Shown: positions 2,247 through 62,426, counted from the first letter of the stretch. The stretch: DNA of 64,000 nucleotides from Escherichia coli (GCF_024298765.1 NZ_CP101210.1); one strand, 5' to 3'. A program made the numbers and translations. The notes: generated by a model from the sequence alone, not told the origin.

Positions 2247-3536
2247 ATGAAAGTATTAGTGATTGGTAACGGCGGGCGCGAGCACGCGCTGGCCTGGAAA
2301 GCGGCCCAGTCGCCGCTGGTTGAAACTGTTTTTGTTGCTCCGGGTAACGCAGGCACTGCGCTGGAGCCTGCACTGCAAAACGTCGCTATCGGCGTAACCG
2401 ATATCCCGGCGCTGCTGGATTTCGCGCAAAACGAAAAGATCGATCTAACCATCGTCGGCCCGGAAGCGCCGCTGGTGAAAGGCGTGGTGGATACCTTCCG
2501 CGCCGCCGGGCTGAAAATCTTCGGCCCAACCGCAGGTGCCGCGCAGCTGGAAGGCTCGAAAGCGTTTACCAAGGATTTCCTGGCCCGCCATCAGATCCCT
2601 ACGGCGGAATACCAGAACTTCACCGAGGTAGAACCTGCGCTGGCGTATCTGCGTGAGAAAGGCGCGCCAATCGTCATTAAAGCTGACGGTCTGGCTGCCG
2701 GGAAAGGCGTTATCGTGGCGATGACGCAGGAAGAAGCGGAAGCGGCTGTTCACGATATGCTGGCGGGCAACGCTTTTGGCGACGCGGGGCATCGCATCGT
2801 TATCGAAGAGTTCCTCGACGGCGAAGAAGCGAGCTTTATCGTGATGGTGGACGGTGAGCATGTGCTGCCGATGGCCACCAGCCAGGATCACAAACGCGTA
2901 GGCGATAAAGATACCGGGCCGAACACCGGCGGGATGGGCGCTTACTCCCCTGCGCCAGTGGTGACCGATGAAGTTCATCAGCGCACGATGGAACGTATCA
3001 TCTGGCCAACCGTGAAAGGCATGGCGGCGGAAGGCAACACCTACACCGGTTTTCTCTACGCGGGCCTGATGATCGACAAACAGGGCAATCCGAAGGTTAT
3101 TGAATTTAACTGCCGCTTTGGCGATCCAGAAACCCAGCCGATTATGCTGCGCATGAAGTCCGATCTGGTTGAGCTTTGCCTGGCGGCCTGTGAAGGCAAG
3201 CTGGACGAGAAAACGTCCGAGTGGGATGAACGCGCTTCTCTCGGCGTGGTGATGGCTGCGGGTGGATATCCGGGCGATTACCACACCGGCGATGTGATCC
3301 ACGGCCTGCCGCTGGAAGAAGTGTCTGACGGCAAAGTGTTCCACGCGGGCACGAAACTGGCGGATGACGAGCAGGTAGTGACCAGCGGCGGGCGCGTACT
3401 GTGCGTCACCGCGCTGGGTCATACCGTGGCAGAAGCGCAGAAACGCGCTTATGCCTTAATGACCGATATCCATTGGGACGACTGCTTCTGCCGGAAAGAT
3501 ATCGGCTGGCGCGCTATCGAACGCGAGCAGAACTAA
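2247..3536 (+). CDS. purD: Phosphoribosylamine-glycine ligase (GAR synthetase)
   Basis: 429-aa ORF MKVLVIGNGGREHALAWK; ATP-grasp fold signature; operon with purH. Confidence 0.97.
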   Translation: MKVLVIGNGGREHALAWKAAQSPLVETVFVAPGNAGTALEPALQNVAIGVTDIPALLDFAQNEKIDLTIVGPEAPLVKGVVDTFRAAGLKIFGPTAGAAQLEGSKAFTKDFLARHQIPTAEYQNFTEVEPALAYLREKGAPIVIKADGLAAGKGVIVAMTQEEAEAAVHDMLAGNAFGDAGHRIVIEEFLDGEEASFIVMVDGEHVLPMATSQDHKRVGDKDTGPNTGGMGAYSPAPVVTDEVHQRTMERIIWPTVKGMAAEGNTYTGFLYAGLMIDKQGNPKVIEFNCRFGDPETQPIMLRMKSDLVELCLAACEGKLDEKTSEWDERASLGVVMAAGGYPGDYHTGDVIHGLPLEEVSDGKVFHAGTKLADDEQVVTSGGRVLCVTALGHTVAEAQKRAYALMTDIHWDDCFCRKDIGWRAIEREQN

Positions 3537-6468: not shown

Positions 6469-6894
6469 ATGAAACGGAACACGAAAATTGCCCTGGTAAT
6501 GATGGCGCTTTCAGCAATGGCGATGGGATCGACATCGGCATTTGCTCACGGCGGACACGGTATGTGGCAGCAAAATGCCGCGCCTTTGACCAGCGAACAA
6601 CAGACAGCGTGGCAGAAAATCCATAATGACTTTTACGCTCAAAGCAGCGCACTGCAACAGCAACTGGTGACGAAGCGTTATGAATACAACGCCCTGTTAG
6701 CCGCGAACCCACCGGATAGCAGCAAAATTAACGCGGTCGCCAAAGAGATGGAGAATTTGCACCAGTCGTTAGATGAATTACGGGTGAAACGAGATATTGC
6801 GATGGCTGAAGCGGGTATTCCGCGCGGTACCGGAATGGGCATGGGCTACGGCGGCTGCGGTGGTGGCAGTCATATGGGTATGGGCCACTGGTAA
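6469..6894 (+). CDS. zraP: Periplasmic zinc-binding envelope stress chaperone
   Basis: 141 aa starting MKRNTKIALVMMALSAMAMG (signal peptide), Gly/Met/His-rich C-terminus; track ORF 6328..6894 is extended upstream across the promoter. Confidence 0.92.
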   Translation: MKRNTKIALVMMALSAMAMGSTSAFAHGGHGMWQQNAAPLTSEQQTAWQKIHNDFYAQSSALQQQLVTKRYEYNALLAANPPDSSKINAVAKEMENLHQSLDELRVKRDIAMAEAGIPRGTGMGMGYGGCGGGSHMGMGHW

Positions 6895-6895
6895 A

Positions 6896-7597
6896 TCAGA
6901 ACGTTTTCTCGTTGGGTTGCCAGCGACAGAAATCAGAGTTTGCCACTAACAGTAATTGCGAACCTTCGGGCGCTTCCAGCCATGCCACGCTGACATCAAC
7001 AGAAGAGCGGCTCTGGCGGCGCTCGATATGCGCTATCGCCTGCGAATCTAAATCAGGTTTAATGGTTTGCCCTTCGCAGGTGGTCACGGTCTGTTCCATC
7101 GCATGCCAGCGCCCCTGGCGCAGCACGACTCTTCCCTGACGTAAGGCATCGCTAATCTGGCGGATCTGATCAGCACGATAACGGTATAAATCGATTTGGT
7201 CGTTAGAAAGCTGCTGCTTTTCCCCATCGGATTCACGTTGCATAAAGCTCAGATCGCCGCGATCGTCAAAACGCGCGCGAATGTTCACCGGCGGTTTGCT
7301 GTAAACATTGATATTGATGAGCGTAAGGTTATCGCCCTGCCAGCGATACTCTCGCGTGGTGGTATCGCCACTGCGCCACGGGCTAAACACGGCAAGCAGA
7401 TGCACATTATCGCCGCTGTCTTTTCGCCAGATGCGTACCGCGCCCTGGTCTTCAGCAAATCCACTGGCGGTAAAGGGAGGAAGTGAAGAGTTGTGGCTAC
7501 AGGCAGTGAGAAACAGCGCACCTGCCAGCATCAATGATCGACGCCAGAAAGACAAAAGGGGTGAAACCACCCCTTCGTTAAAACTGTTCACTGCCAC
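6896..7597 (-). CDS. yjaH: Conserved hypothetical protein (probable lipoprotein)
   Basis: ORF with hydrophobic N-terminus and Cys (LAGALFLTACSHN); synteny between zraP and hupA; track start is probably a GTG, exact start uncertain. Confidence 0.8.
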   Translation of the reverse strand: MAVNSFNEGVVSPLLSFWRRSLMLAGALFLTACSHNSSLPPFTASGFAEDQGAVRIWRKDSGDNVHLLAVFSPWRSGDTTTREYRWQGDNLTLININVYSKPPVNIRARFDDRGDLSFMQRESDGEKQQLSNDQIDLYRYRADQIRQISDALRQGRVVLRQGRWHAMEQTVTTCEGQTIKPDLDSQAIAHIERRQSRSSVDVSVAWLEAPEGSQLLLVANSDFCRWQPNEKTF

Positions 7598-26382: not shown

Positions 26383-26440
26383 GCGCAAAAAGGCTGGTGA
26401 CTAAAAAGTCACCAGCCATCAGCCTGATTTCTCAGGCTGC
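26383..26440 (-). terminator. rplL-rpoB intergenic attenuator hairpins
   Basis: Minus strand: cagcctgagaaatcaggctg then aggctggtgactttttagtcaccagccttttt (stem-loop plus U-run) between rplL and rpoB. Confidence 0.7.
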
Positions 26441-26456
26441 AACCGGAAGGGTTGGC

Positions 26457-38583: not shown

Positions 38584-38767
38584 TCACAACCCGAAGATGT
38601 TTCACTTCAGAGTTGCGAAAATTTGAGAGACTCACGAACAACTTTCGTTGTTCAGTGTTTCAATTTTCAGCTTGATCCAGATTTTTAAAGAGCAAATATC
38701 TCAAACATCACCCGAAGATGAGTTTTGAGATATTAAGGCAGGTGACTTTCACTCACAAACCAGCAAG

Positions 38768-46339: not shown

Positions 46340-47740
46340 ATGCCACATTCCTACGATTACGATGCCATAGTAATAGGTTCCGGCCCCGGCGGCGAAGGCG
46401 CTGCAATGGGCCTGGTTAAGCAAGGTGCGCGCGTCGCAGTTATCGAGCGTTATCAAAATGTTGGCGGCGGTTGCACCCACTGGGGCACCATCCCGTCGAA
46501 AGCTCTCCGTCACGCCGTCAGCCGCATTATAGAATTTAATCAAAACCCACTTTACAGCGACCATTCGCGACTGCTCCGCTCTTCTTTTGCCGATATCCTT
46601 AACCATGCCGATAACGTGATTAATCAACAAACGCGCATGCGTCAGGGATTTTACGAACGTAATCACTGTGAAATATTGCAGGGGAACGCTCGCTTTGTTG
46701 ACGAGCACACGCTGGCGCTGGATTGCCCGGACGGCAGCGTCGAGACACTAACCGCTGAAAAATTTGTTATTGCTTGCGGCTCTCGTCCATATCATCCAAC
46801 AGATGTTGATTTCACGCATCCACGCATTTACGACAGCGACTCAATTCTTAGCATGCACCACGAACCGCGCCATGTACTTATCTATGGTGCTGGAGTGATC
46901 GGCTGTGAATATGCGTCGATCTTCCGCGGTATGGATGTAAAAGTGGATCTGATCAACACCCGCGATCGCCTGCTGGCATTTCTCGATCAAGAGATGTCAG
47001 ATTCTCTCTCCTATCACTTCTGGAACAGTGGCGTAGTGATTCGTCACAACGAAGAGTACGAGAAGATCGAAGGCTGTGACGACGGTGTGATCATGCATTT
47101 GAAGTCGGGTAAAAAACTGAAAGCTGACTGCCTGCTCTATGCCAACGGTCGCACCGGTAATACCGATTCGCTGGCGTTACAGAACATTGGGCTGGAAACT
47201 GACAGCCGCGGACAGCTGAAGGTCAACAGCATGTATCAGACCGCACAGCCGCACGTTTACGCGGTGGGCGACGTGATTGGTTATCCGAGCCTGGCGTCGG
47301 CGGCCTATGACCAGGGGCGCATTGCCGCGCAGGCGCTGGTGAAAGGTGAAGCCACCGCACATCTGATTGAAGATATCCCTACCGGTATTTACACCATCCC
47401 GGAAATCAGCTCTGTGGGCAAAACCGAACAGCAGCTGACCGCGATGAAAGTGCCATATGAAGTGGGCCGCGCCCAGTTTAAACATCTGGCACGTGCACAA
47501 ATCGTCGGCATGAACGTGGGCACGCTGAAAATTTTGTTCCATCGGGAAACAAAAGAGATTCTGGGTATTCACTGCTTTGGCGAGCGCGCTGCCGAAATTA
47601 TTCATATCGGTCAGGCGATTATGGAACAGAAAGGTGGCGGCAACACTATTGAGTACTTCGTCAACACCACCTTTAACTACCCGACGATGGCGGAAGCCTA
47701 TCGGGTAGCTGCGCTAAATGGCTTAAACCGCCTGTTTTAA
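46340..47740 (+). CDS. sthA: Soluble pyridine nucleotide transhydrogenase
   Basis: 466 aa [38 protein letters not shown]; FAD/NAD Rossmann motifs. Confidence 0.97.
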
Positions 47741-48640
47741 CACTTTATCGAAATGGCCATCCATTCTTGCGCGGATGGCCTCTGCCAGCTGCTCATAGCG
47801 GCTGCGCAGCGGTGAGCCAGGACGATAAACCAGACCAATGGTACGGCGTGGTTCCGGCTTAATACACGGCAAATAAACAACCCCATCGCGTTTGCGCTCC
47901 GGCGGCACAGCCAGCGCAGGCAGTAAAGTGATCCCGCTACCTGCCGCCACCATGTTGCGCAGAGTTTCCAGGCTGGTCGCGCGGAAGTGTGTATCTTCAT
48001 CCGCCCCGGCTTCAAAACAGAAACCCATTGCCTGATCGCGCAAACAGTGACCGTCTTCCAGCATCAGCAGTTTTTCCCCTGCCAGATCGGCCATCGGTAC
48101 GCATTCGCGGTTCGCCCACGGATGGTCTTCATAGATAGCCAGCAACATTGGCTCATCAAACAACGGCACTTCAATGAATGCTTCGCTCTCTTTCACCAGC
48201 GCGAGGATCACGCAATCGAGTTTGCCGCTGTCCAGTTGCGCCAGTAACTGGTGGGTCTGTGCTTCATGCAGATACATTTCCAGCTTTGGAAAGGTCTGGT
48301 GCAGCATCGGGATAATATGCGGTAGCAGGTACGGTCCAACCGTGGGAATCAGACCAATATGCAGCGGTCCGGACATCGTCTCGCCCTGCTGGCTTGCCAT
48401 CTCTTTAAGGACTTTCACCTCACGCAGCACGGTACGCGCCTGATCCACCAGCAGCATTCCCGCCTGGGTGAATAACACTTTACGGCTGGTCCGCTCCAGC
48501 AACATCACACCCAACTCATCTTCCAGCTTACGAATTTGCCCGCTAAGCGTCGGCTGGCTAACGTGGCAGGAATCTGCCGCACGCCGAAAATGGCGGTGTT
48601 CGGCCAATGCCACCAGGTACTCAAGATCACGAATATTCAT
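47723..48640 (-). CDS. oxyR: LysR-family hydrogen peroxide-inducible regulator
   Basis: 305 aa from [44 protein letters not shown]; redox Cys residues present; 3' end overlaps sthA by 18 bp. Confidence 0.97.
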
Positions 48641-48735
48641 TATCCATCCTCCATTGCCACGATAGTTCGCGGCGATAGGTAGCATAGCAACGAACGATTA
48701 TCCCTATCAAGCATTCTGACTGATAATTGCTCACA

Positions 48736-48848
48736 GAAACGGAGCGGCACCTCTTTTAACCCTTGAAGTCACTGCCCGTTTCGAGAGTTTCTCAACTCGA
48801 ATAACTAAAGCCAACGTGAACTTTTGCGGATCTCCAGGATCCGCTTTT
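48736..48848 (+). ncRNA. oxyS: OxyS small regulatory RNA
   Basis: GAAACGGAGCGGCACCTCTTTTAACCCTTGAAGTCACTGCCCGTTTCGAGAGTTTCTCAACTCGAATAACTAAAGCCAACGTGAACTTTTGCGGATCTCCAGGATCCGCTTTTTTTT; divergent from oxyR. Confidence 0.92.
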
Positions 48849-48891
48849 TTTTATTCTACAGGCCCACAGCAAGAGAGCCTGATAGTAACGG

Positions 48892-50175
48892 TTACTCAAT
48901 CCGATCTTTGACAATAAAGAAGTAACACAGCGCCCCGGTGAACGTCACACAGGCCGCGATAACCAGCGCCAGATTAAACGAGTGTGTGGTATCCACGACC
49001 CAACCGGTTACGATCGGAGCAAAGGAAGCAAAAACAAAACTGCCAAAGTTTTGAATCCCGGCGATGGAAGCCACTTTTGTTTCTGACACCATCACCTGCA
49101 CCAGCCCCCATGCAGATGTTCCCGCGAAATGCACGCAGAACAGCGCCATTGAGATAAACGCTACCGCCTGGGCTGGCGAGGAAGATTGCACGACCAGCAA
49201 CGTGCCTAATGCCGACATCATCAAACCGCAGACAATCGCCGTTTTACGCGTCTTCGCCAGGTCATAGCCTTTTTTCGCCAGCCGATCGACAACAATACCG
49301 TTAACCCACATCCCGACCGCCGCCGCGAGGAAAGGAATTGCCGCCACCCAACCGGTTTTCGCCAGACTGAAACCTTGTTCGGCCTGCAAATAACCGGGTA
49401 ACCACGCGATGTAGAGCCAACCGGTATAATTGACGCCAGAGAAACCTAAAATCATCCCCCAGGTTGTCCGATGCTTAAACAGCGCCAGCCACTCGCTAAA
49501 TTGTAACTGTGGACGCGGTTTAACCGGCGCGGAGAGATATGTCCGTTCTTCCTCGGTCAGGACAAACTGCGCCCGGTTGCGATACCACGCGTACCAACAG
49601 ATCCCAACCAGAATCCCTGCTACGCCGATGATGACAAACATCGTCCGCCAGCCCCATGCCAGTTGCATCAATACAAGAGCAGGAGGCGCGATAGCCTGAC
49701 CGATAACGGTAGATGAGTTAAAAATCCCCAGCGCCGTGCCGCGTTCTTTTTGCGCATACCAGTCGGTGATCGACTTTACTCCCGCAGGCATAAATGGCGC
49801 TTCGCCAATACCCAGACCGATACGCATTAAAATAAAGTGGCTAAAAGAATTAACCATTCCTGTTAATGCCTGCATTAATGACCAGAATATTAAGCCTGCG
49901 CCTAACACTATTCGTGGGCCAAAGCGGTCTAGCAAAATACCGGAAGGAAGTTGTGAAAAACCATAAGACAGAGAAAATGCAGAAAGCAAAACACCAAACT
50001 CGGTAGCGGATAATCCTAACTCGCCACGAATTGCTTCACCTGCCACGCTCAATGACGAACGGTCGAGAAAATTAACGATCCCCGCCATAAATAATAAAAC
50101 CAGGGTCACTGTCTGAATACGACGAATCCGTTGCGGTTTATTACCCGCAACACTGGTTGACACATCAACGTCCAT
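48892..50175 (-). CDS. MFS transporter, anion:cation symporter family (hexonate/hexuronate-type)
   Basis: 427-aa ORF; MFS motif A GILLDRFGPRIV; about 12 hydrophobic segments; strong RBS aaggag; resembles the DgoT/ExuT/GudP/RhmT class by eye. Confidence 0.85.
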   Translation of the reverse strand: MDVDVSTSVAGNKPQRIRRIQTVTLVLLFMAGIVNFLDRSSLSVAGEAIRGELGLSATEFGVLLSAFSLSYGFSQLPSGILLDRFGPRIVLGAGLIFWSLMQALTGMVNSFSHFILMRIGLGIGEAPFMPAGVKSITDWYAQKERGTALGIFNSSTVIGQAIAPPALVLMQLAWGWRTMFVIIGVAGILVGICWYAWYRNRAQFVLTEEERTYLSAPVKPRPQLQFSEWLALFKHRTTWGMILGFSGVNYTGWLYIAWLPGYLQAEQGFSLAKTGWVAAIPFLAAAVGMWVNGIVVDRLAKKGYDLAKTRKTAIVCGLMMSALGTLLVVQSSSPAQAVAFISMALFCVHFAGTSAWGLVQVMVSETKVASIAGIQNFGSFVFASFAPIVTGWVVDTTHSFNLALVIAACVTFTGALCYFFIVKDRIE

Positions 50176-50241
50176 TTTTAGCTCCTTGAGCGGAATTAAT
50201 CGATTTGATGAATATTCAGAAAATAATTAAGCGAACCGCTA

Positions 50242-51456
50242 TTACCAGTTCCACAATGTGCCATCTTCCAGTCGTGCGACGGGGAGATACGCCGGGTCAT
50301 ACGGATATTTCGCCGCCAGTTTCTCATCGAAAGAAATACCCAGCCCCGGTTCATCGCCTGGGTGCATATAACCTTCATCGAAGCGCCAGCTATGCGGGAA
50401 GACTTCAAGCATTTGTTCGGAATAGCCCATGTACTCCTGAACGCCAAAGTTTGGCACCCAGAGGTCAAAATGCAGCGCCGCCGCATGGCAAACAGGCGAT
50501 AAATCTGAAGGGCCATGCGAACCGGTACGTACCTGATAAAGCGATGCAAAATCGGCAATCCGTCGCATCCCGGTAATGCCGCCTGCATGGGTAATCGTCG
50601 TGCGAATATAGTCAATCAGCTGCTCTTCGATTAACTGCTTGCAGTCCCAGATACTGTTAAACACTTCACCGACCGCAATCGGCGTCACGGTATGCTGACG
50701 AATCAGACGAAAACATTCCTGATTCTCGGCAGGCGTCGGATCTTCCATCCAGAACAGGCGGTAATCTTCAATGCTCTTCCCAAAGCGCGCCGCTTCGATG
50801 GGGGTCAGGCGATGGTGCATGTCATGCAACAGATGTTCGTTAAAACCGAACTTATTACGCACCGCTTCAAATAACTTCGGCGTAAAATCGAGATACTTTT
50901 CTGAAGACCACAACTGCTCTTCTGGCCACAGGCCTTTGGTTGCTGGTTCATACGCCAGTCCTTTGCCCTTCGCCAGACCATAGGTGGTTTGCATACCCGG
51001 TACACCACACTGCACACGAATCGCCTTAAAGCCCATCTGCTGGTGCTTTGCATAGTCTTCAAGGACTTCATCAATCGTACGCCCGGTGGTGTGGCAATAA
51101 ACCATAACGCCTTCACGAGAAGCACCACCAAGCAGTTGATACAATGGCATATTTGCCGCTTTTGCTTTGATATCCCACAACGCCATATCAATGGCAGAAA
51201 TGGCTGACATCGTGACGGGGCCACGTCGCCAGTAAGCACCTTTATAAAAGAATTGCCAGATATCTTCGATACGGCTGGCATCGCGGCCAATTAGTTGTGG
51301 ACAAAGATGATCTTTCAGATAAGAAGCGACCGACAATTCGCGACCATTTAACGTGGCATCTCCTAATCCACAAAGTCCGCTTGCAGTGGTTATTTTAAGC
51401 GTAACGAAATTACGCCCTGGGCAAGTAACAAAAACATCTGCAGCAATAATTTTCAT
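50242..51456 (-). CDS. Enolase-superfamily dehydratase, D-mannonate dehydratase (ManD/RspA-like) subgroup
   Basis: 404 aa from [24 protein letters not shown]; ManD-type motifs ([25 protein letters not shown]) and metal ligands in HDMHH / WMEDP / GEVF; RBS aggag. Confidence 0.85.
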
Positions 51457-51857
51457 TATTGCAATCTCCTGTGTTGTAAATAGACGTTTCAAACTTAATT
51501 TTGCGCCTACTACCATACAAGAGAGAAAGAGCGATTATTCAACCATGATCACATTAAAAATAAAAATTTCTACCGAGGAGAAAAAACACCCTCAAAAACC
51601 ACCTGAATAATTAGCTATCATCGTTAAAACAACACGTTAAATAATCACATAACAAACTCCATTAATCATTAAAAATGAACACAGCAATAGAAATGAATTA
51701 TATTCAATTAATTAAAGTATGTATTGGCTGATGTATTGAAAATATAATTTTTATGGGGAGAGTGAAGGTAAAGAAGACGCAAGAATAAAAAGGAATGTGA
51801 CAAATAATGGTTCTGGTTGGGCGTTAAATTTAAGGTCACCAGAATACTGACAAATTT

Positions 51858-51912
51858 CTGCCTGATGCGGCGTAAACGCCTTATCCGCCTACGAAGTGTC
51901 GCACTTTGTAGG
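51858..51912. repeat. REP/BIME-type palindromic repeat downstream of argH
   Basis: gcctgatgcggcgtaaacgccttatccgcctac followed by an imperfect palindrome gaagtgtcgcactttgtagg. Confidence 0.6.
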
Positions 51913-51953
51913 CGTGGTAAGCTCCCCATTTTCAGGGGAGCAATATAAACAAA

Positions 51954-53327
51954 CTACTCTAACCGAGCTTGCGCAAAAGCAATCGCCTGCGCCACCTGCT
52001 GCGGTGAGACGCCGCCTTTTGCAGCACGCTTGTCGAGGCACGATTGCAGCGACAGAATCGGATAGACATCTTCGCCAATCACCTGGCTGAATTTCTGCAA
52101 CTCACTGAGCGGCAGATCTTCCAACGCTTTGCCCTGACGAATGGCTTCCACCACAGCTTCACCCACAATATGGTGCGCCTCGCGGAACGGTACGCCTTTC
52201 GCCACCAGATAATCCGCCAGTTCAGTAGCGTTGGCGTAACCCTGCTGCGCCGCTTCCTGGCAACGCGGACGTTTCACCTGAATGCCGTCCAGCACCAGCG
52301 CCGCCATATGCAGGCAGTCCAGCCAGGTATCGAGCGCGTCGAACAGACCTTCTTTGTCTTCCTGCATATCTTTGTTGTAAGCCAGCGGCAAACCTTTCAG
52401 CGTCATCATCATGCCGGTTAACGCCCCCTGCACCCGACCGCATTTACCGCGAATCAGCTCCAGCGCATCCGGGTTTTTCTTCTGCGGCATTAATGATGAA
52501 CCGGAAGTCACACGGTCAGAAAGCTCCACAAACCCCGCTTCGCCGGTGTTAAAGAAAATCAGATCTTCAGCAAAACGCGACAGATGCACCATGCCGATAG
52601 CGGCAGCAGAAAGCAGTTCCAACACATGGTCACGGTCAGAAACGCTGTCGAGACTGTTACGGGTCGCCGAAGCAAAGCCCAGCCAGCCTGCTAACTGTTC
52701 ACGGTCGATTTCATAGGCCGTTCCTGCCAGTGCGCCACAGCCTAGCGGGCTGACATCCAGACGCTTAAGCGCGTCCTGCAAACGGCTTTCATCACGCGCC
52801 AGCATCTCAACGTAGGCCAGGCACCAGTGAGCGAACGTCACCGGCTGGGCGCGTTGCAGGTGAGTGTAACCCGGCATCACCGCGTCCTGATTGTTCTGCG
52901 CGGTCTCGACCAGAGCGGATTGTAACTGCCGGTTAGCCGTCAGCAACTCGCTAACGGTATCTTTGCACCACAGTTTCAGGTCAGTTGCTACCTGATCATT
53001 ACGGCTACGCCCGGTATGCAGTTTTTTGCCTAACTGACCCACTTTGTCGATCAGTTTGCCTTCCACCCAGCTATGGATATCTTCGGCGTCGCTTTCAAGG
53101 ATTTGTTGTGGCCTGGCGCGAACATCTTCCAGCAGCACGTTCAGCGCCTCTTCCAGTTGCGCCTGCTCTTCTGCGGTTAACACGCCGACCGTTACCAGGG
53201 CTTTGGACCAGGCCACAGAGCCAACAATATCCTGCTCCGCCAGACGGTAATCAAAGCGCAGTGAGTCGTTGAATTGTTTGAACCGTTGATCTGCTGCCTG
53301 GGTAAAACGCCCGCCCCAAAGTGCCAT
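51954..53327 (-). CDS. argH: Argininosuccinate lyase
   Basis: 457 aa [44 protein letters not shown]. Confidence 0.97.
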
Positions 53328-61574: not shown

Positions 61575-62426
61575 ATGTATCACGACGTCAGCTATCTGCT
61601 CTCCCGCCTGATCAACGGCCCGCTGTCCCTGCGCCAGATTTACTTTGCCAGCAGCAACGGCCCGGTACCCGATCTTGCGTATCAGGTCGATTTTCCACGG
61701 CTGGAAATTGTGCTGGAAGGTGAGTTTATTGATACCGGCGCTGGAGCAGCGTTAGTTCCCGGCGATGTGCTGTACGTCCCTGCTGGTGGCTGGAATTTTC
61801 CACAATGGCAAGCCCCCGCCACCACCTTTAGCGTGCTGTTTGGCAAACAGCAACTCGGCTTCAGCGTTGTGCAATGGGATGGCAAACAATATCAAAATCT
61901 GGCGAAGCAACACGTCGCCCGACGCGGCCCGCGCATTGGTTCTTTTCTGCTACAAACGCTCAATGAAATGCAAATGCAGTCGCAGGAGCAGCAAACGGCC
62001 AGACTTATCGTCGCCAGCCTGCTTAGCCACTGCCGCGATTTGCTCGGCAGCCAAATCCAGACCGCCTCACGCAGCCAGGCACTGTTCGAAGCTATTCGTG
62101 ATTATATCGACGAACGCTATGCCTCCGCGCTTACCCGCGAATCTGTCGCACAGGCATTCTATATTTCGCCAAATTACCTCTCGCACCTGTTTCAAAAAAC
62201 GGGGGCCATTGGTTTTAACGAATACCTGAATCACACGCGACTGGAGCACGCTAAGACGTTATTGAAAGGCTATGACCTGAAGGTAAAAGAAGTGGCGCAC
62301 GCCTGCGGCTTTGTCGACAGCAACTACTTCTGCCGTCTGTTTCGTAAAAATACCGAACGCTCGCCGTCGGAATATCGTCGGCAGTACCACAGCCAACTGA
62401 CAGAAAAACCGACTACTCCAGAATAA
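61575..62426 (+). CDS. yijO: AraC/XylS-family transcriptional regulator
   Basis: 283 aa; cupin-like N-terminal half and C-terminal AraC HTH. Confidence 0.9.
   Translation: MYHDVSYLLSRLINGPLSLRQIYFASSNGPVPDLAYQVDFPRLEIVLEGEFIDTGAGAALVPGDVLYVPAGGWNFPQWQAPATTFSVLFGKQQLGFSVVQWDGKQYQNLAKQHVARRGPRIGSFLLQTLNEMQMQSQEQQTARLIVASLLSHCRDLLGSQIQTASRSQALFEAIRDYIDERYASALTRESVAQAFYISPNYLSHLFQKTGAIGFNEYLNHTRLEHAKTLLKGYDLKVKEVAHACGFVDSNYFCRLFRKNTERSPSEYRRQYHSQLTEKPTTPE

What the first reader, a model, noticed from the sequence alone, without database searches (positions are those of the whole stretch)
48820..48900. Island operon converges on oxyS with no intrinsic terminator in its direction: potential antisense read-through across OxyS
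The transporter stop (48892) lies about 40 bp from the oxyS terminator. Read on the minus strand, the oxyS hairpin is preceded (not followed) by the U-run, so it should not terminate transcripts leaving the island efficiently. Expression of the module could therefore generate RNA antisense to OxyS.
Basis: inference. Interest (0 to 1): 0.4.

Follow-up and report, generated by a model that had tools for sequence, protein, structure and literature searches.

The report
Terminator-less operon end facing oxyS
In about a third of E. coli strains, including CFT073, a two-gene sugar-acid module ends 39 bases from the OxyS small-RNA gene with no terminator of its own, so its transcripts probably run antisense across oxyS; such tail-to-tail overlaps are common in E. 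coli and no effect has been shown.

Summary
oxyS lies at 48736-48852 (+). Its terminator is a hairpin at 48826-48844 followed by T8. An MFS transporter gene on the minus strand stops at 48892-48894, 39 nt away. Read on the minus strand, the hairpin is preceded by A8 and followed by AAAAGUUC, so there is no U-tract. No canonical terminator and no C-rich Rho-loading stretch lies between the MFS stop and the oxyR start codon.

New context:
- Island-free strains (K-12, O157) carry a dedicated argH terminator in this spacer. The manD-MFS island replaced it.
- The junction is nearly invariant in 1868 of 5426 complete E. coli genomes, CFT073 included.
- Relatives in other genera continue with an rspB-like gene or a strong terminator, so the island looks like a truncated operon.
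- Read-through would be antisense to OxyS and then sense into oxyR.
- The only terminator-like element on that path lies at the far end of oxyS.

The interpretation remains an untested inference. Five of the 14 other convergent gene ends in this window also lack a terminator, and K-12 Term-seq places the sthA 3' end inside oxyR. I rate this an ordinary member of a known class with modest interest. It could be tested in CFT073.

The parts
48736..48852 (+). oxyS gene (OxyS sRNA), including the U-run of its terminator
   Evidence: Rfam RF00035 at 48736-48845, 139.5 bits, full length 1-110. K-12 Term-seq 3' ends fall 5-6 nt into the U-run (PMC7815308 supplement).
48826..48852 (+). oxyS intrinsic terminator: 8-bp hairpin 48826-48844 plus T8 at 48845-48852. 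Unidirectional by sequence.
   Evidence: 8 pairs, 5 GC, loop 3, tail TTTTTTTTAT; dG -11.2 and T-score 5.68 on the + strand; dG -10.3 and T-score 0.15 on the - strand.
48853..48891 (-). 39-nt island-derived spacer between the MFS stop and the oxyS T-run. It contains a hairpin at 48881-48859 (CAGGCUCUCUUGCUGUGGGCCUG, dG -11.0) followed by UAGAAUAA, with no U-tract. Possibly a decayed terminator.
   Evidence: Homology to K-12/O157 stops at 48852. Fold and T-score 1.0. Alignment with Citrobacter sp. R56 places a 27-nt gap that removes the 5' arm and loop of a GC hairpin. The hairpin is not conserved in Escherichia sp. MOD1-EC7003.
48892..50175 (-). MFS transporter gene (anion:cation symporter type, D-galactonate-transporter-like), last gene of the module. 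Stop codon TAA at 48894-48892.
   Evidence: ORF. Pfam MFS_1 190.7 bits and TIGR00893 276.6 bits, the latter below its cutoff. RefSeq annotation 'MFS transporter'.
50242..51456 (-). manD (D-mannonate dehydratase ManD, enolase superfamily), first gene of the module. About 81% DNA identity to the core gene rspA.
   Evidence: NCBIfam NF043051 equivalog 731.5 bits against a cutoff of 550. RefSeq annotation. rspA hit at 80.9% (H10).
51507..51553 (-). rspA-type promoter/operator upstream of manD: TGTGATCA at 51553-51546 and CTTGTATGGTAGTAG at 51521-51507, carrying an RspR-box with a degenerate left half (TCTCTTGTAT instead of ATACTTGTAT).
   Evidence: 15-nt exact match to the rspA upstream region at the same distance from the ATG. 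Conserved in manD upstream regions from three other genera. RspR footprint and ATACnnGTAT box reported in PMC8249747.
48732..48778 (-). Only terminator-like element on the read-through path: the complement of OxyS stem-loop a (hairpin 48778-48740, interrupted, 11-nt loop, dG about -10) followed by UUUCUGUG (48739-48732). It lies at the far end of oxyS, so it could not prevent antisense overlap.
   Evidence: Relaxed scans, T-score 3.06. Fold. Not reported by the consensus scan.
48641..48735 (.). Divergent oxyR/oxyS promoter region with the OxyR operator (ATAG/CTAT repeats at about 48674-48716). Read-through RNA polymerase must cross it.
   Evidence: Promoter-like sites on the - strand. Sequence. 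Operator position is from my own knowledge of the OxyR literature, not tested here.
47723..48640 (-). oxyR, on the same strand as the module. Read-through past oxyS would enter it in the sense direction.
   Evidence: ORF. RefSeq annotation.
51954..53327 (-). argH, the gene that converges directly on oxyS in island-free strains.
   Evidence: ORF. Annotation.

Best explanation
This is the junction between a strain-variable two-gene sugar-acid module (manD-MFS, minus strand) and the core oxyS gene.

Shown by sequence:
- The module replaced the short argH-oxyS spacer that carries argH's own terminator in K-12.
- The module brought no terminator with it. It looks like a truncated manD-MFS-rspB-type operon cut 39 nt after the MFS stop.

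Inferred:
- RNA polymerase leaving MFS meets two stable hairpins with no U-tract. These are the spacer hairpin and the reverse complement of the oxyS terminator. They can at most cause a pause.
- The next roughly 250 nt of untranslated RNA are G-rich and strongly folded, which is poor for Rho.
- So whenever the module is transcribed, most polymerases should continue across oxyS and produce RNA fully complementary to at least the 3' half of OxyS.
- Ends are probably heterogeneous. Candidates are the weak hairpin plus UUUCUGUG at the far end of oxyS, a roadblock by OxyR bound at its operator, continuation into oxyR as sense mRNA, and 3'-exonuclease trimming back to the hairpins.
- The physiological effect on OxyS is probably small. 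OxyS is made in large amounts on induction, the module's promoter is an rspA-type regulated promoter in AT-rich DNA, and such 3' overlaps are routine in E. coli.
For: - Positions of oxyS, its terminator and the MFS stop.
- No minus-strand terminator-like site between 50233 and 47600: with relaxed scans.
- U-tract score 0.15 behind the reversed oxyS hairpin and 1.0 behind the spacer hairpin. For comparison: 5.68 for oxyS, 3.45 for the K-12 argH terminator, 3.52 for the Enterobacter MFS terminator.
- C/G 0.59-0.94 in every 78-nt window from 48900 to 48650. MFE -83.9 kcal/mol, z = -3.4.
- K-12 and O157 have GAGCCTGGCTTATCGCCGGGCTT+TTTTAT on the argH strand, and homology ends exactly at 48852.
- The junction is nearly invariant in 1868 of 5426 complete genomes, in three other Escherichia lineages, and in CFT073.
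- Relatives: manD-MFS followed by a strong terminator in Enterobacter sp. kpr-6; manD-MFS followed by an rspB-like gene in Lelliottia and Siccibacter.
- Unidirectional terminators let antisense polymerases pass, and both collisions and antisense RNA repress expression (PMC4731013).
Against: - There are no transcript data for this locus. No paper in the held library reports RNA antisense to OxyS.
- Hairpin-induced pausing, NusG-dependent Rho action or a bound protein could still terminate transcription despite the unfavourable composition.
- The module may be barely transcribed. Its upstream region is 27-36% GC, its RspR-box has lost one half-site, and IS1 or IS5 insertions in two strains show it is dispensable.
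- A hairpin plus UUUCUGUG at 48778-48732 may stop part of the read-through before oxyR.
Confidence: 0.5

Rival explanations
1. Transcripts of the module are efficiently ended or trimmed before the body of oxyS. Possible routes are Rho/NusG, pausing at the two hairpins, or fast 3'-5' decay back to the spacer hairpin. Under this reading no meaningful antisense OxyS RNA accumulates.
For: - Two stable hairpins lie directly after the stop codon (dG -11.0 and -10.3).
- In K-12 the sthA 3' end maps to a hairpin without a U-run (PMC7815308 supplement), so stable 3' ends can form at such hairpins.
- The RNA after the stop codon is untranslated.
Against: - No U-tract follows either hairpin.
- C/G stays below 1 and the RNA is strongly folded, the opposite of a rut site. 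Compare C/G of 4.8-7.3 in the argH 3' flank.
- Only 39-47 nt of untranslated RNA precede the oxyS terminator, too short for Rho loading by established knowledge.
- Trimming back after downstream termination would still mean oxyS DNA was transcribed antisense, so collisions could still occur.
Confidence: 0.15
2. The module is essentially silent (a cryptic, decaying remnant), so the missing terminator has no consequence and is simply tolerated.
For: - The module is a two-gene remnant of operons that carry a third, rspB-like gene elsewhere.
- The upstream region is AT-rich.
- The left half-site of the RspR-box is mutated only in the E. coli island.
- IS1 and IS5 insertions occur in natural strains.
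- The module is absent from two thirds of E. coli.
Against: - Both ORFs are intact and 97-100% conserved across 1860 genomes and in sister Escherichia lineages.
- The TGTGA element, the operator and the Shine-Dalgarno sequences are retained at conserved spacing. A weakened repressor site would, if anything, raise expression.
Confidence: 0.25
3. The arrangement is a working regulatory device of the excludon type. When the module is induced, its long 3' extension lowers OxyS through polymerase collision and RNase III cleavage of the duplex. It also supplies oxyR mRNA that escapes OxyR autorepression. Carbon status would thereby be coupled to the peroxide response in island-bearing lineages.
For: - The geometry fits. 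The read-through is antisense to oxyS and sense to the divergent oxyR.
- No insulating terminator is present, although K-12 has one here.
- The junction is conserved.
- There is a K-12 precedent: an upstream oxyR P2 start overlaps OxyS by 41 nt and was proposed to lower OxyS (PMC7967276).
Against: - Conservation of the junction reflects the low divergence of E. coli, not demonstrated selection.
- The spacer hairpin is not conserved in Escherichia sp. MOD1-EC7003.
- Similar terminator-less convergent ends are common nearby.
- The OxyS burst on induction should far exceed any read-through RNA (my own knowledge).
- There are no expression data.
Confidence: 0.07

Closest known systems
Antisense RNA from transcriptional read-through at convergent genes with a unidirectional terminator (synthetic system of Brophy & Voigt 2016, PMC4731013; natural sbrB-lexA case in S. 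aureus, PMC8745188)
   Same: A terminator that works in one direction only, with a convergent transcription unit behind it. The predicted consequences are polymerase collision plus a perfectly complementary RNA.
   Different: Here the target is a 110-nt trans-acting sRNA gene rather than an mRNA. The read-through comes from an operon that has no terminator at all, not from a leaky one. No transcript has been observed.
K-12 / O157 argH-oxyS junction (tail-to-tail pair of dedicated terminators)
   Same: Same locus and same oxyS terminator, with a minus-strand operon converging on oxyS across a short spacer (61 nt in K-12, 39 nt here).
   Different: K-12 has its own hairpin plus U6 terminator for argH. 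The island-bearing configuration has none for MFS.
Bidirectional intrinsic terminators shared by convergent genes (hairpin flanked by an A-tract and a U-tract)
   Same: A single hairpin sits between two convergent transcription units.
   Different: The 5' flank of the hairpin on the + strand is ACUUUU, so the minus-strand 3' flank is AAAAGU. The U-tract needed for the second direction is missing.
Excludon (long antisense transcript that covers one gene and serves as mRNA for the divergent neighbour; described in Listeria, from my own knowledge)
   Same: The predicted transcript would be antisense to oxyS and continue as sense RNA into the divergently arranged oxyR.
   Different: It would originate by read-through from an upstream operon rather than from a dedicated promoter. 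Neither the transcript's existence nor any effect has been shown.
oxyR P2 / OxyS 5' overlap in K-12 (PMC7967276)
   Same: Minus-strand transcription overlapping oxyS. An interference effect on OxyS level was proposed.
   Different: P2 overlaps only the first 41 nt of OxyS. It is a promoter inside the locus that is present in all strains. The case here would cover all of OxyS and is strain-specific.
SdsR/RyeA (sRNA with a fully complementary cis-antisense RNA, PMC6610125)
   Same: An sRNA whose gene is transcribed on both strands.
   Different: RyeA is a discrete sRNA with its own promoter. Here the antisense RNA would be a 3' extension of an mRNA.

Membership tests
OxyS sRNA (Rfam RF00035) | Covariance-model match at or above the gathering score, full length, divergent from oxyR | tested here: met
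   139.5 bits against 75, model positions 1-110, at 48736-48845 (+). oxyR lies at 47723-48640 (-).
Intrinsic (Rho-independent) terminator for the manD-MFS operon | GC-rich hairpin shortly after the stop codon | tested here: met
   Hairpins at 48881-48859 (dG -11.0) and 48844-48826 (dG -10.3) on the minus strand.
Intrinsic (Rho-independent) terminator for the manD-MFS operon | U-rich tract immediately 3' of the hairpin | tested here: not met
   The tails are UAGAAUAA (T-score 1.0) and AAAAGUUC (T-score 0.15). The consensus scan finds no minus-strand site between 50233 and 47600.
Bidirectional intrinsic terminator | A-tract 5' and U-tract 3' of one hairpin, so that both strands read hairpin plus U-run | tested here: not met
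   The + strand 5' flank is GAACUUUU, not an A-tract. The minus-strand tail has 2 U in 8.
Rho-dependent terminator downstream of MFS | Untranslated RNA of about 70 nt or more | tested here: met
   254 nt lie between the MFS stop and the oxyR ATG (48894-48641). Only short ORFs of 27-40 codons with GTG or TTG starts occur there.
Rho-dependent terminator downstream of MFS | C-rich, G-poor, weakly structured rut region | tested here: not met
   C/G 0.59-0.94 in all 78-nt windows. MFE z-score -3.4. In contrast, C/G reaches 4.8-7.3 downstream of argH.
Rho-dependent terminator downstream of MFS | Bicyclomycin-sensitive 3' ends in vivo | not testable with these tools
   Needs Term-seq or RNA-seq with and without bicyclomycin in an island-bearing strain.
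Read-through-derived cis-antisense RNA | Convergent transcription unit with no effective terminator before the target gene | tested here: met
Read-through-derived cis-antisense RNA | Antisense transcript detected | not testable with these tools
   No RNA data are available. Literature searches found nothing.
Excludon | One long transcript that is antisense to one gene and mRNA for the divergent neighbour | tested here: inconclusive
   The geometry allows it, since oxyS is on the + strand and oxyR on the - strand downstream on the same strand as MFS. The transcript is not demonstrated, and a weak terminator-like element at 48778-48732 and the OxyR operator lie in between.
D-mannonate dehydratase ManD (NCBIfam NF043051 equivalog) | Score above the curated cutoff over the full length | tested here: met
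   731.5 bits against 550, residues 1-404.

The most novel reading that the evidence does not exclude
In the third of E. coli lineages that carry manD-MFS, including CFT073-type UPEC and APEC strains, loss of the insulating terminator may have created an excludon-like link. Induction of the rspA-type promoter, which is likely controlled by CRP and RspR, would send polymerases antisense through oxyS and on into oxyR. This would damp OxyS and add oxyR mRNA that escapes autorepression, so the peroxide response would be wired differently from K-12.
Probability: 0.07. Interest if true: 0.6.

Novelty: new member of a known kind. Interest (0 to 1): 0.25.

Why it matters
OxyS and OxyR are textbook regulators that have been studied almost entirely in K-12, where argH is insulated from oxyS by its own terminator. 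About a third of E. coli genomes, including CFT073 and many avian-pathogenic strains, have a different neighbour with no insulation. If read-through occurs, OxyS levels and oxyR transcription in those strains could depend on the expression of an unrelated sugar-acid module. That would be a strain-specific rewiring invisible to K-12 work. If it does not occur, the locus is still a clean natural test of how E. coli ends transcripts that lack both a U-tract terminator and a C-rich rut site. Either way the phenomenon belongs to a well-known class, so the expected impact is modest.

Tried and rejected
- Hidden canonical terminator on the minus strand. I ran the consensus scan and two relaxed ViennaRNA-based scans. 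Nothing appears before the far end of oxyS.
- Bidirectional action of the oxyS terminator. Rejected on flank sequence and U-tract score.
- Rho site in the spacer or in antisense oxyS. Composition and structure argue against it.
- Another RNA family on either strand of 48500-49100. Only OxyS was found.
- Variant spacers with a terminator among island-bearing E. coli. The spacer is nearly invariant; only the A-run length (7-9) and a few SNPs differ.
- More Citrobacter-type long spacers, to firm up the decayed-terminator idea. A metagenome pattern scan gave 0 hits. The one extra relative I fetched (L028) is not next to oxyS. The idea therefore rests on a single comparator.
- Linkage between the island and a cluster of 5 SNPs in the oxyR promoter/operator. 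Rejected, because two island-bearing strains carry the K-12 allele.
- Published transcript evidence. K-12 Term-seq supplements list the oxyS and sthA 3' ends but no argH-strand end in the held text. UPEC sRNA papers mention OxyS only in their reference lists. The ManD physiology paper (doi 10.1021/bi500837w) is not held.

Full report
**What is there**

The window is an E. coli chromosome segment. Reading left to right it carries rrnB, murI, btuB, trmA, yijD-fabR, sthA, oxyR, oxyS, the island, and argHBC.
- Rfam places OxyS at 48736-48845 on the + strand with 139.5 bits against a gathering score of 75.
- Its terminator is the hairpin GCGGATCTCCAGGATCCGC at 48826-48844, followed by eight T at 48845-48852.
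- On the minus strand, a 427-aa MFS transporter gene (48892-50175) ends with TAA at 48894-48892.
- It is preceded by manD at 50242-51456. This matches the NCBIfam ManD equivalog with 731.5 bits against a cutoff of 550.
- The gap between the stop codon and the T-run is 39 nt.

**Is there a terminator in the module's direction?**

The minus-strand RNA after the stop reads CCGUUACUAU-CAGGCUCUCUUGCUGUGGGCCUG-UAGAAUAAAAAAAA-GCGGAUCCUGGAGAUCCGC-AAAAGUUCACG.
- Two hairpins form, with dG of -11.0 and -10.3 kcal/mol. Neither is followed by a U-tract.
- Weighted U-tract scores are 1.0 and 0.15. For comparison: 5.68 for the oxyS terminator in its own direction, 3.45 for the K-12 argH terminator, and 3.52 for the terminator behind the orthologous MFS gene of Enterobacter sp. 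kpr-6.
- The consensus scan reports no minus-strand terminator-like site anywhere between 50233 and 47600.
On this strand the run is an A-run. The point stands.
- The oxyS terminator is not of the bidirectional type, because its 5' flank on the + strand is ACUUUU rather than an A-tract.

**Could Rho do the job?**

- From the MFS stop to the oxyR start codon there are 254 untranslated nucleotides.
- Every 78-nt window in this stretch has more G than C (C/G 0.59-0.94).
- The RNA folds unusually well (-83.9 kcal/mol, z = -3.4, none of 200 shuffles as good). That is expected for the mirror image of a highly structured sRNA.
- This is the opposite of a rut site. The untranslated stretch downstream of argH in the same window reaches C/G of 4.8-7.3.
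- Only 39-47 nt of untranslated RNA precede the oxyS terminator. I cannot exclude it without data.

**The only terminator-like element on the path**

- A relaxed scan picks up the complement of OxyS stem-loop a. It is an interrupted hairpin at 48778-48740 (dG about -10, 11-nt loop) followed by UUUCUGUG at 48739-48732, with a U-tract score of 3.06.
- If it works at all, it stops polymerases after they have crossed the whole of oxyS. It could limit entry into oxyR but not the antisense overlap.

**Comparative context**

1. The island is present in 1860 of 5426 complete E. coli genomes. The MFS-oxyS junction is present in 1868, with at least 97.5% identity over 161 nt.
2. Divergent island-bearing strains differ in the spacer only by A-run length (7-9) and a few SNPs. 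CFT073 has exactly the window's sequence.
3. K-12 and O157 lack the island, and their homology to the window stops exactly at 48852, the last T of the oxyS terminator. In those strains argH converges on oxyS across 61 nt that contain a dedicated terminator on the argH strand, GAGCCTGGCTTATCGCCGGGCTT followed by TTTTAT. The island configuration has therefore lost an insulator that the reference strain has.
4. The same argH-manD-MFS-oxyS-oxyR order occurs in Escherichia sp. MOD1-EC7003, Escherichia sp. E1V33 and E. whittamii.
5. Elsewhere the module sits at other loci and has a proper end:
   - manD-MFS followed by a strong terminator (dG -17.9, U-run) in Enterobacter sp. kpr-6.
   - manD-MFS followed directly by a 339-aa Zn-dependent oxidoreductase of the RspB type (NF007489, 661 and 639 bits) in Lelliottia and Siccibacter.

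   The E. coli island thus looks like a two-gene remnant cut just after MFS.
6. Citrobacter sp. R56 has the MFS gene alone next to oxyS, with a 97-nt spacer carrying AGCCCCC-CUUUAUC-GGGGGCU plus UUCCUGCUU. MAFFT aligns the Escherichia spacer to it with a 27-nt gap that removes the 5' arm and loop. This suggests a decayed terminator, but it rests on one comparator. A metagenome scan for more found nothing.

**Where read-through would go**

- oxyR is on the same strand as the module.
- A polymerase that passes oxyS crosses the oxyR/oxyS promoter-operator region and enters oxyR in the sense direction.
- The predicted transcript has excludon-like geometry: antisense to oxyS and mRNA for the divergent oxyR.
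- OxyR bound at its operator could act as a roadblock. This is inference from general knowledge.
- There is a K-12 precedent for minus-strand transcription over part of oxyS. An upstream oxyR P2 start overlaps OxyS by 41 nt and was proposed to lower OxyS (PMC7967276).
- Synthetic work shows that unidirectional terminators let antisense polymerases through. It also shows that collision and antisense RNA each contribute to repression (PMC4731013).

**How unusual is it?**

Not very.
- Using the annotation of an identical genome, the window has eight convergent junctions.
- In four of them the two stops overlap or abut: purD/zraR, zraP/yjaH, sthA/oxyR and yijO/frwD.
- Five of the 14 other convergent gene ends have no hairpin plus U-run within 200 nt.
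- In K-12 Term-seq the sthA 3' end maps 45 nt past its stop, inside oxyR on the opposite strand, at a hairpin without a U-run (PMC7815308 supplement).
- Earlier operon mapping reported roughly 500 overlapping transcripts in K-12, including convergent operons (quoted in PMC7373196).
- The oxyS-argH spacer is known to vary between enterobacterial families (PMC8825220).

**Will the module be transcribed?**

- Its upstream region is 27-36% GC.
- It is nevertheless a recognisable homologue of the core rspA promoter. TGTGATCA and CTTGTATGGTAGTAG lie at the same spacing and the same distance from the ATG.
- The second element contains the RspR (YdfH) box ATACnnGTAT, defined by footprinting on rspA (PMC8249747).
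- In the E. coli island the left half-site is changed (TCTCTTGTAT). It is intact in rspA and in the manD genes of three other genera.
- Expression is therefore plausible and probably conditional, but it is unknown.
- IS1 and IS5 insertions in two strains show the module is dispensable.

**Verdict**

- My best reading (confidence about 0.5): when the module is transcribed, most polymerases cross oxyS, ends are heterogeneous, and the effect on OxyS is small.
- Rivals: efficient termination or trimming before oxyS (0.15), a silent module (0.25), and a genuine excludon-like regulatory link (0.07).
- I found no published transcript evidence either way.
- This is a new instance of a known kind of arrangement. 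It is mainly of interest because it touches a textbook sRNA in clinically important lineages and can be tested directly in CFT073.

Noticed in passing
window 51507-51553 (-); L029 2740-2800; L010, L018, L024 upstream of manD: The manD upstream region is homologous to the core rspA promoter: TGTGATCA plus a 15-nt exact match, CTTGTATGGTAGTAG, 50 nt before the ATG. The published RspR (YdfH) box ATACnnGTAT is intact in rspA and in the manD genes of Lelliottia, Enterobacter and Siccibacter. In the E. coli island its left half is lost (TCTCTTGTAT). The island may have partly escaped RspR repression.
   Followed up: partly
window 48892-51456 compared with L018 2767-6354 and L024 2663-6406: In Lelliottia and Siccibacter the module is manD-MFS followed directly by an RspB-type Zn-dependent oxidoreductase (NF007489, 661 and 639 bits). 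The E. coli island lacks the third gene and looks like a truncated operon.
   Followed up: partly
L023 3208-5440 (Citrobacter sp. R56): Citrobacter sp. R56 has the MFS gene (92% aa identity) alone between argH and oxyS, with no manD. Its 97-nt spacer carries its own GC hairpin plus UUCCUGCUU. The Escherichia spacer aligns to it with a 27-nt gap over the 5' arm and loop.
   Followed up: partly
window 51716-51953 (-): In island-bearing strains argH is followed by a hairpin without a U-run (51942-51922, tail UUACCACG), then REP-like palindromes (about 51845-51905), then an extremely C-rich, G-poor stretch (C/G 4.8-7.3). argCBH transcripts probably end here by Rho rather than at an intrinsic terminator as in K-12.
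   Followed up: partly
window 48655-48692: A cluster of five SNPs relative to K-12 lies in the oxyR promoter/OxyR operator region, including the oxyR -10 hexamer (TATTCT to TATGCT). It is shared by some island-bearing strains but not all, so it is a lineage polymorphism not linked to the island.
   Followed up: yes
window 47723-47740: sthA and oxyR converge and overlap by 18 nt. K-12 Term-seq places the sthA 3' end 45 nt past its stop, antisense inside oxyR, at a hairpin without a U-run.
   Followed up: partly
window 3533-3536, 6894-6896, 47723-47740, 62413-62426: Four of the eight convergent gene pairs in the window have overlapping or abutting stop codons (purD/zraR, zraP/yjaH, sthA/oxyR, yijO/frwD). 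Their transcripts must therefore extend antisense into the neighbouring gene.
   Followed up: yes
window 48641-48891; RefSeq records NZ_CP029164.1, NC_004431.1 and others: The RefSeq/PGAP annotations of these genomes list no oxyS feature. The gap between MFS and oxyR appears empty in the annotation tables.
   Followed up: no
NZ_AP038246.1 and NZ_CP095816.1 (hits H66, H67): Two natural strains carry IS insertions inside the island: an IS1A-family element in HCM-28C-2, and an ISKpn26 (IS5-like) element splitting the MFS gene in FY10.
   Followed up: no
window 26391-26452 (-) and 38591-38690 (-): There are Rfam hits to 'Pseudomonas sRNA P26' in the rplL-rpoB spacer and to StyR-44 just upstream of the 23S rRNA gene. 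Both are known conserved elements of these operons and look ordinary.
   Followed up: no
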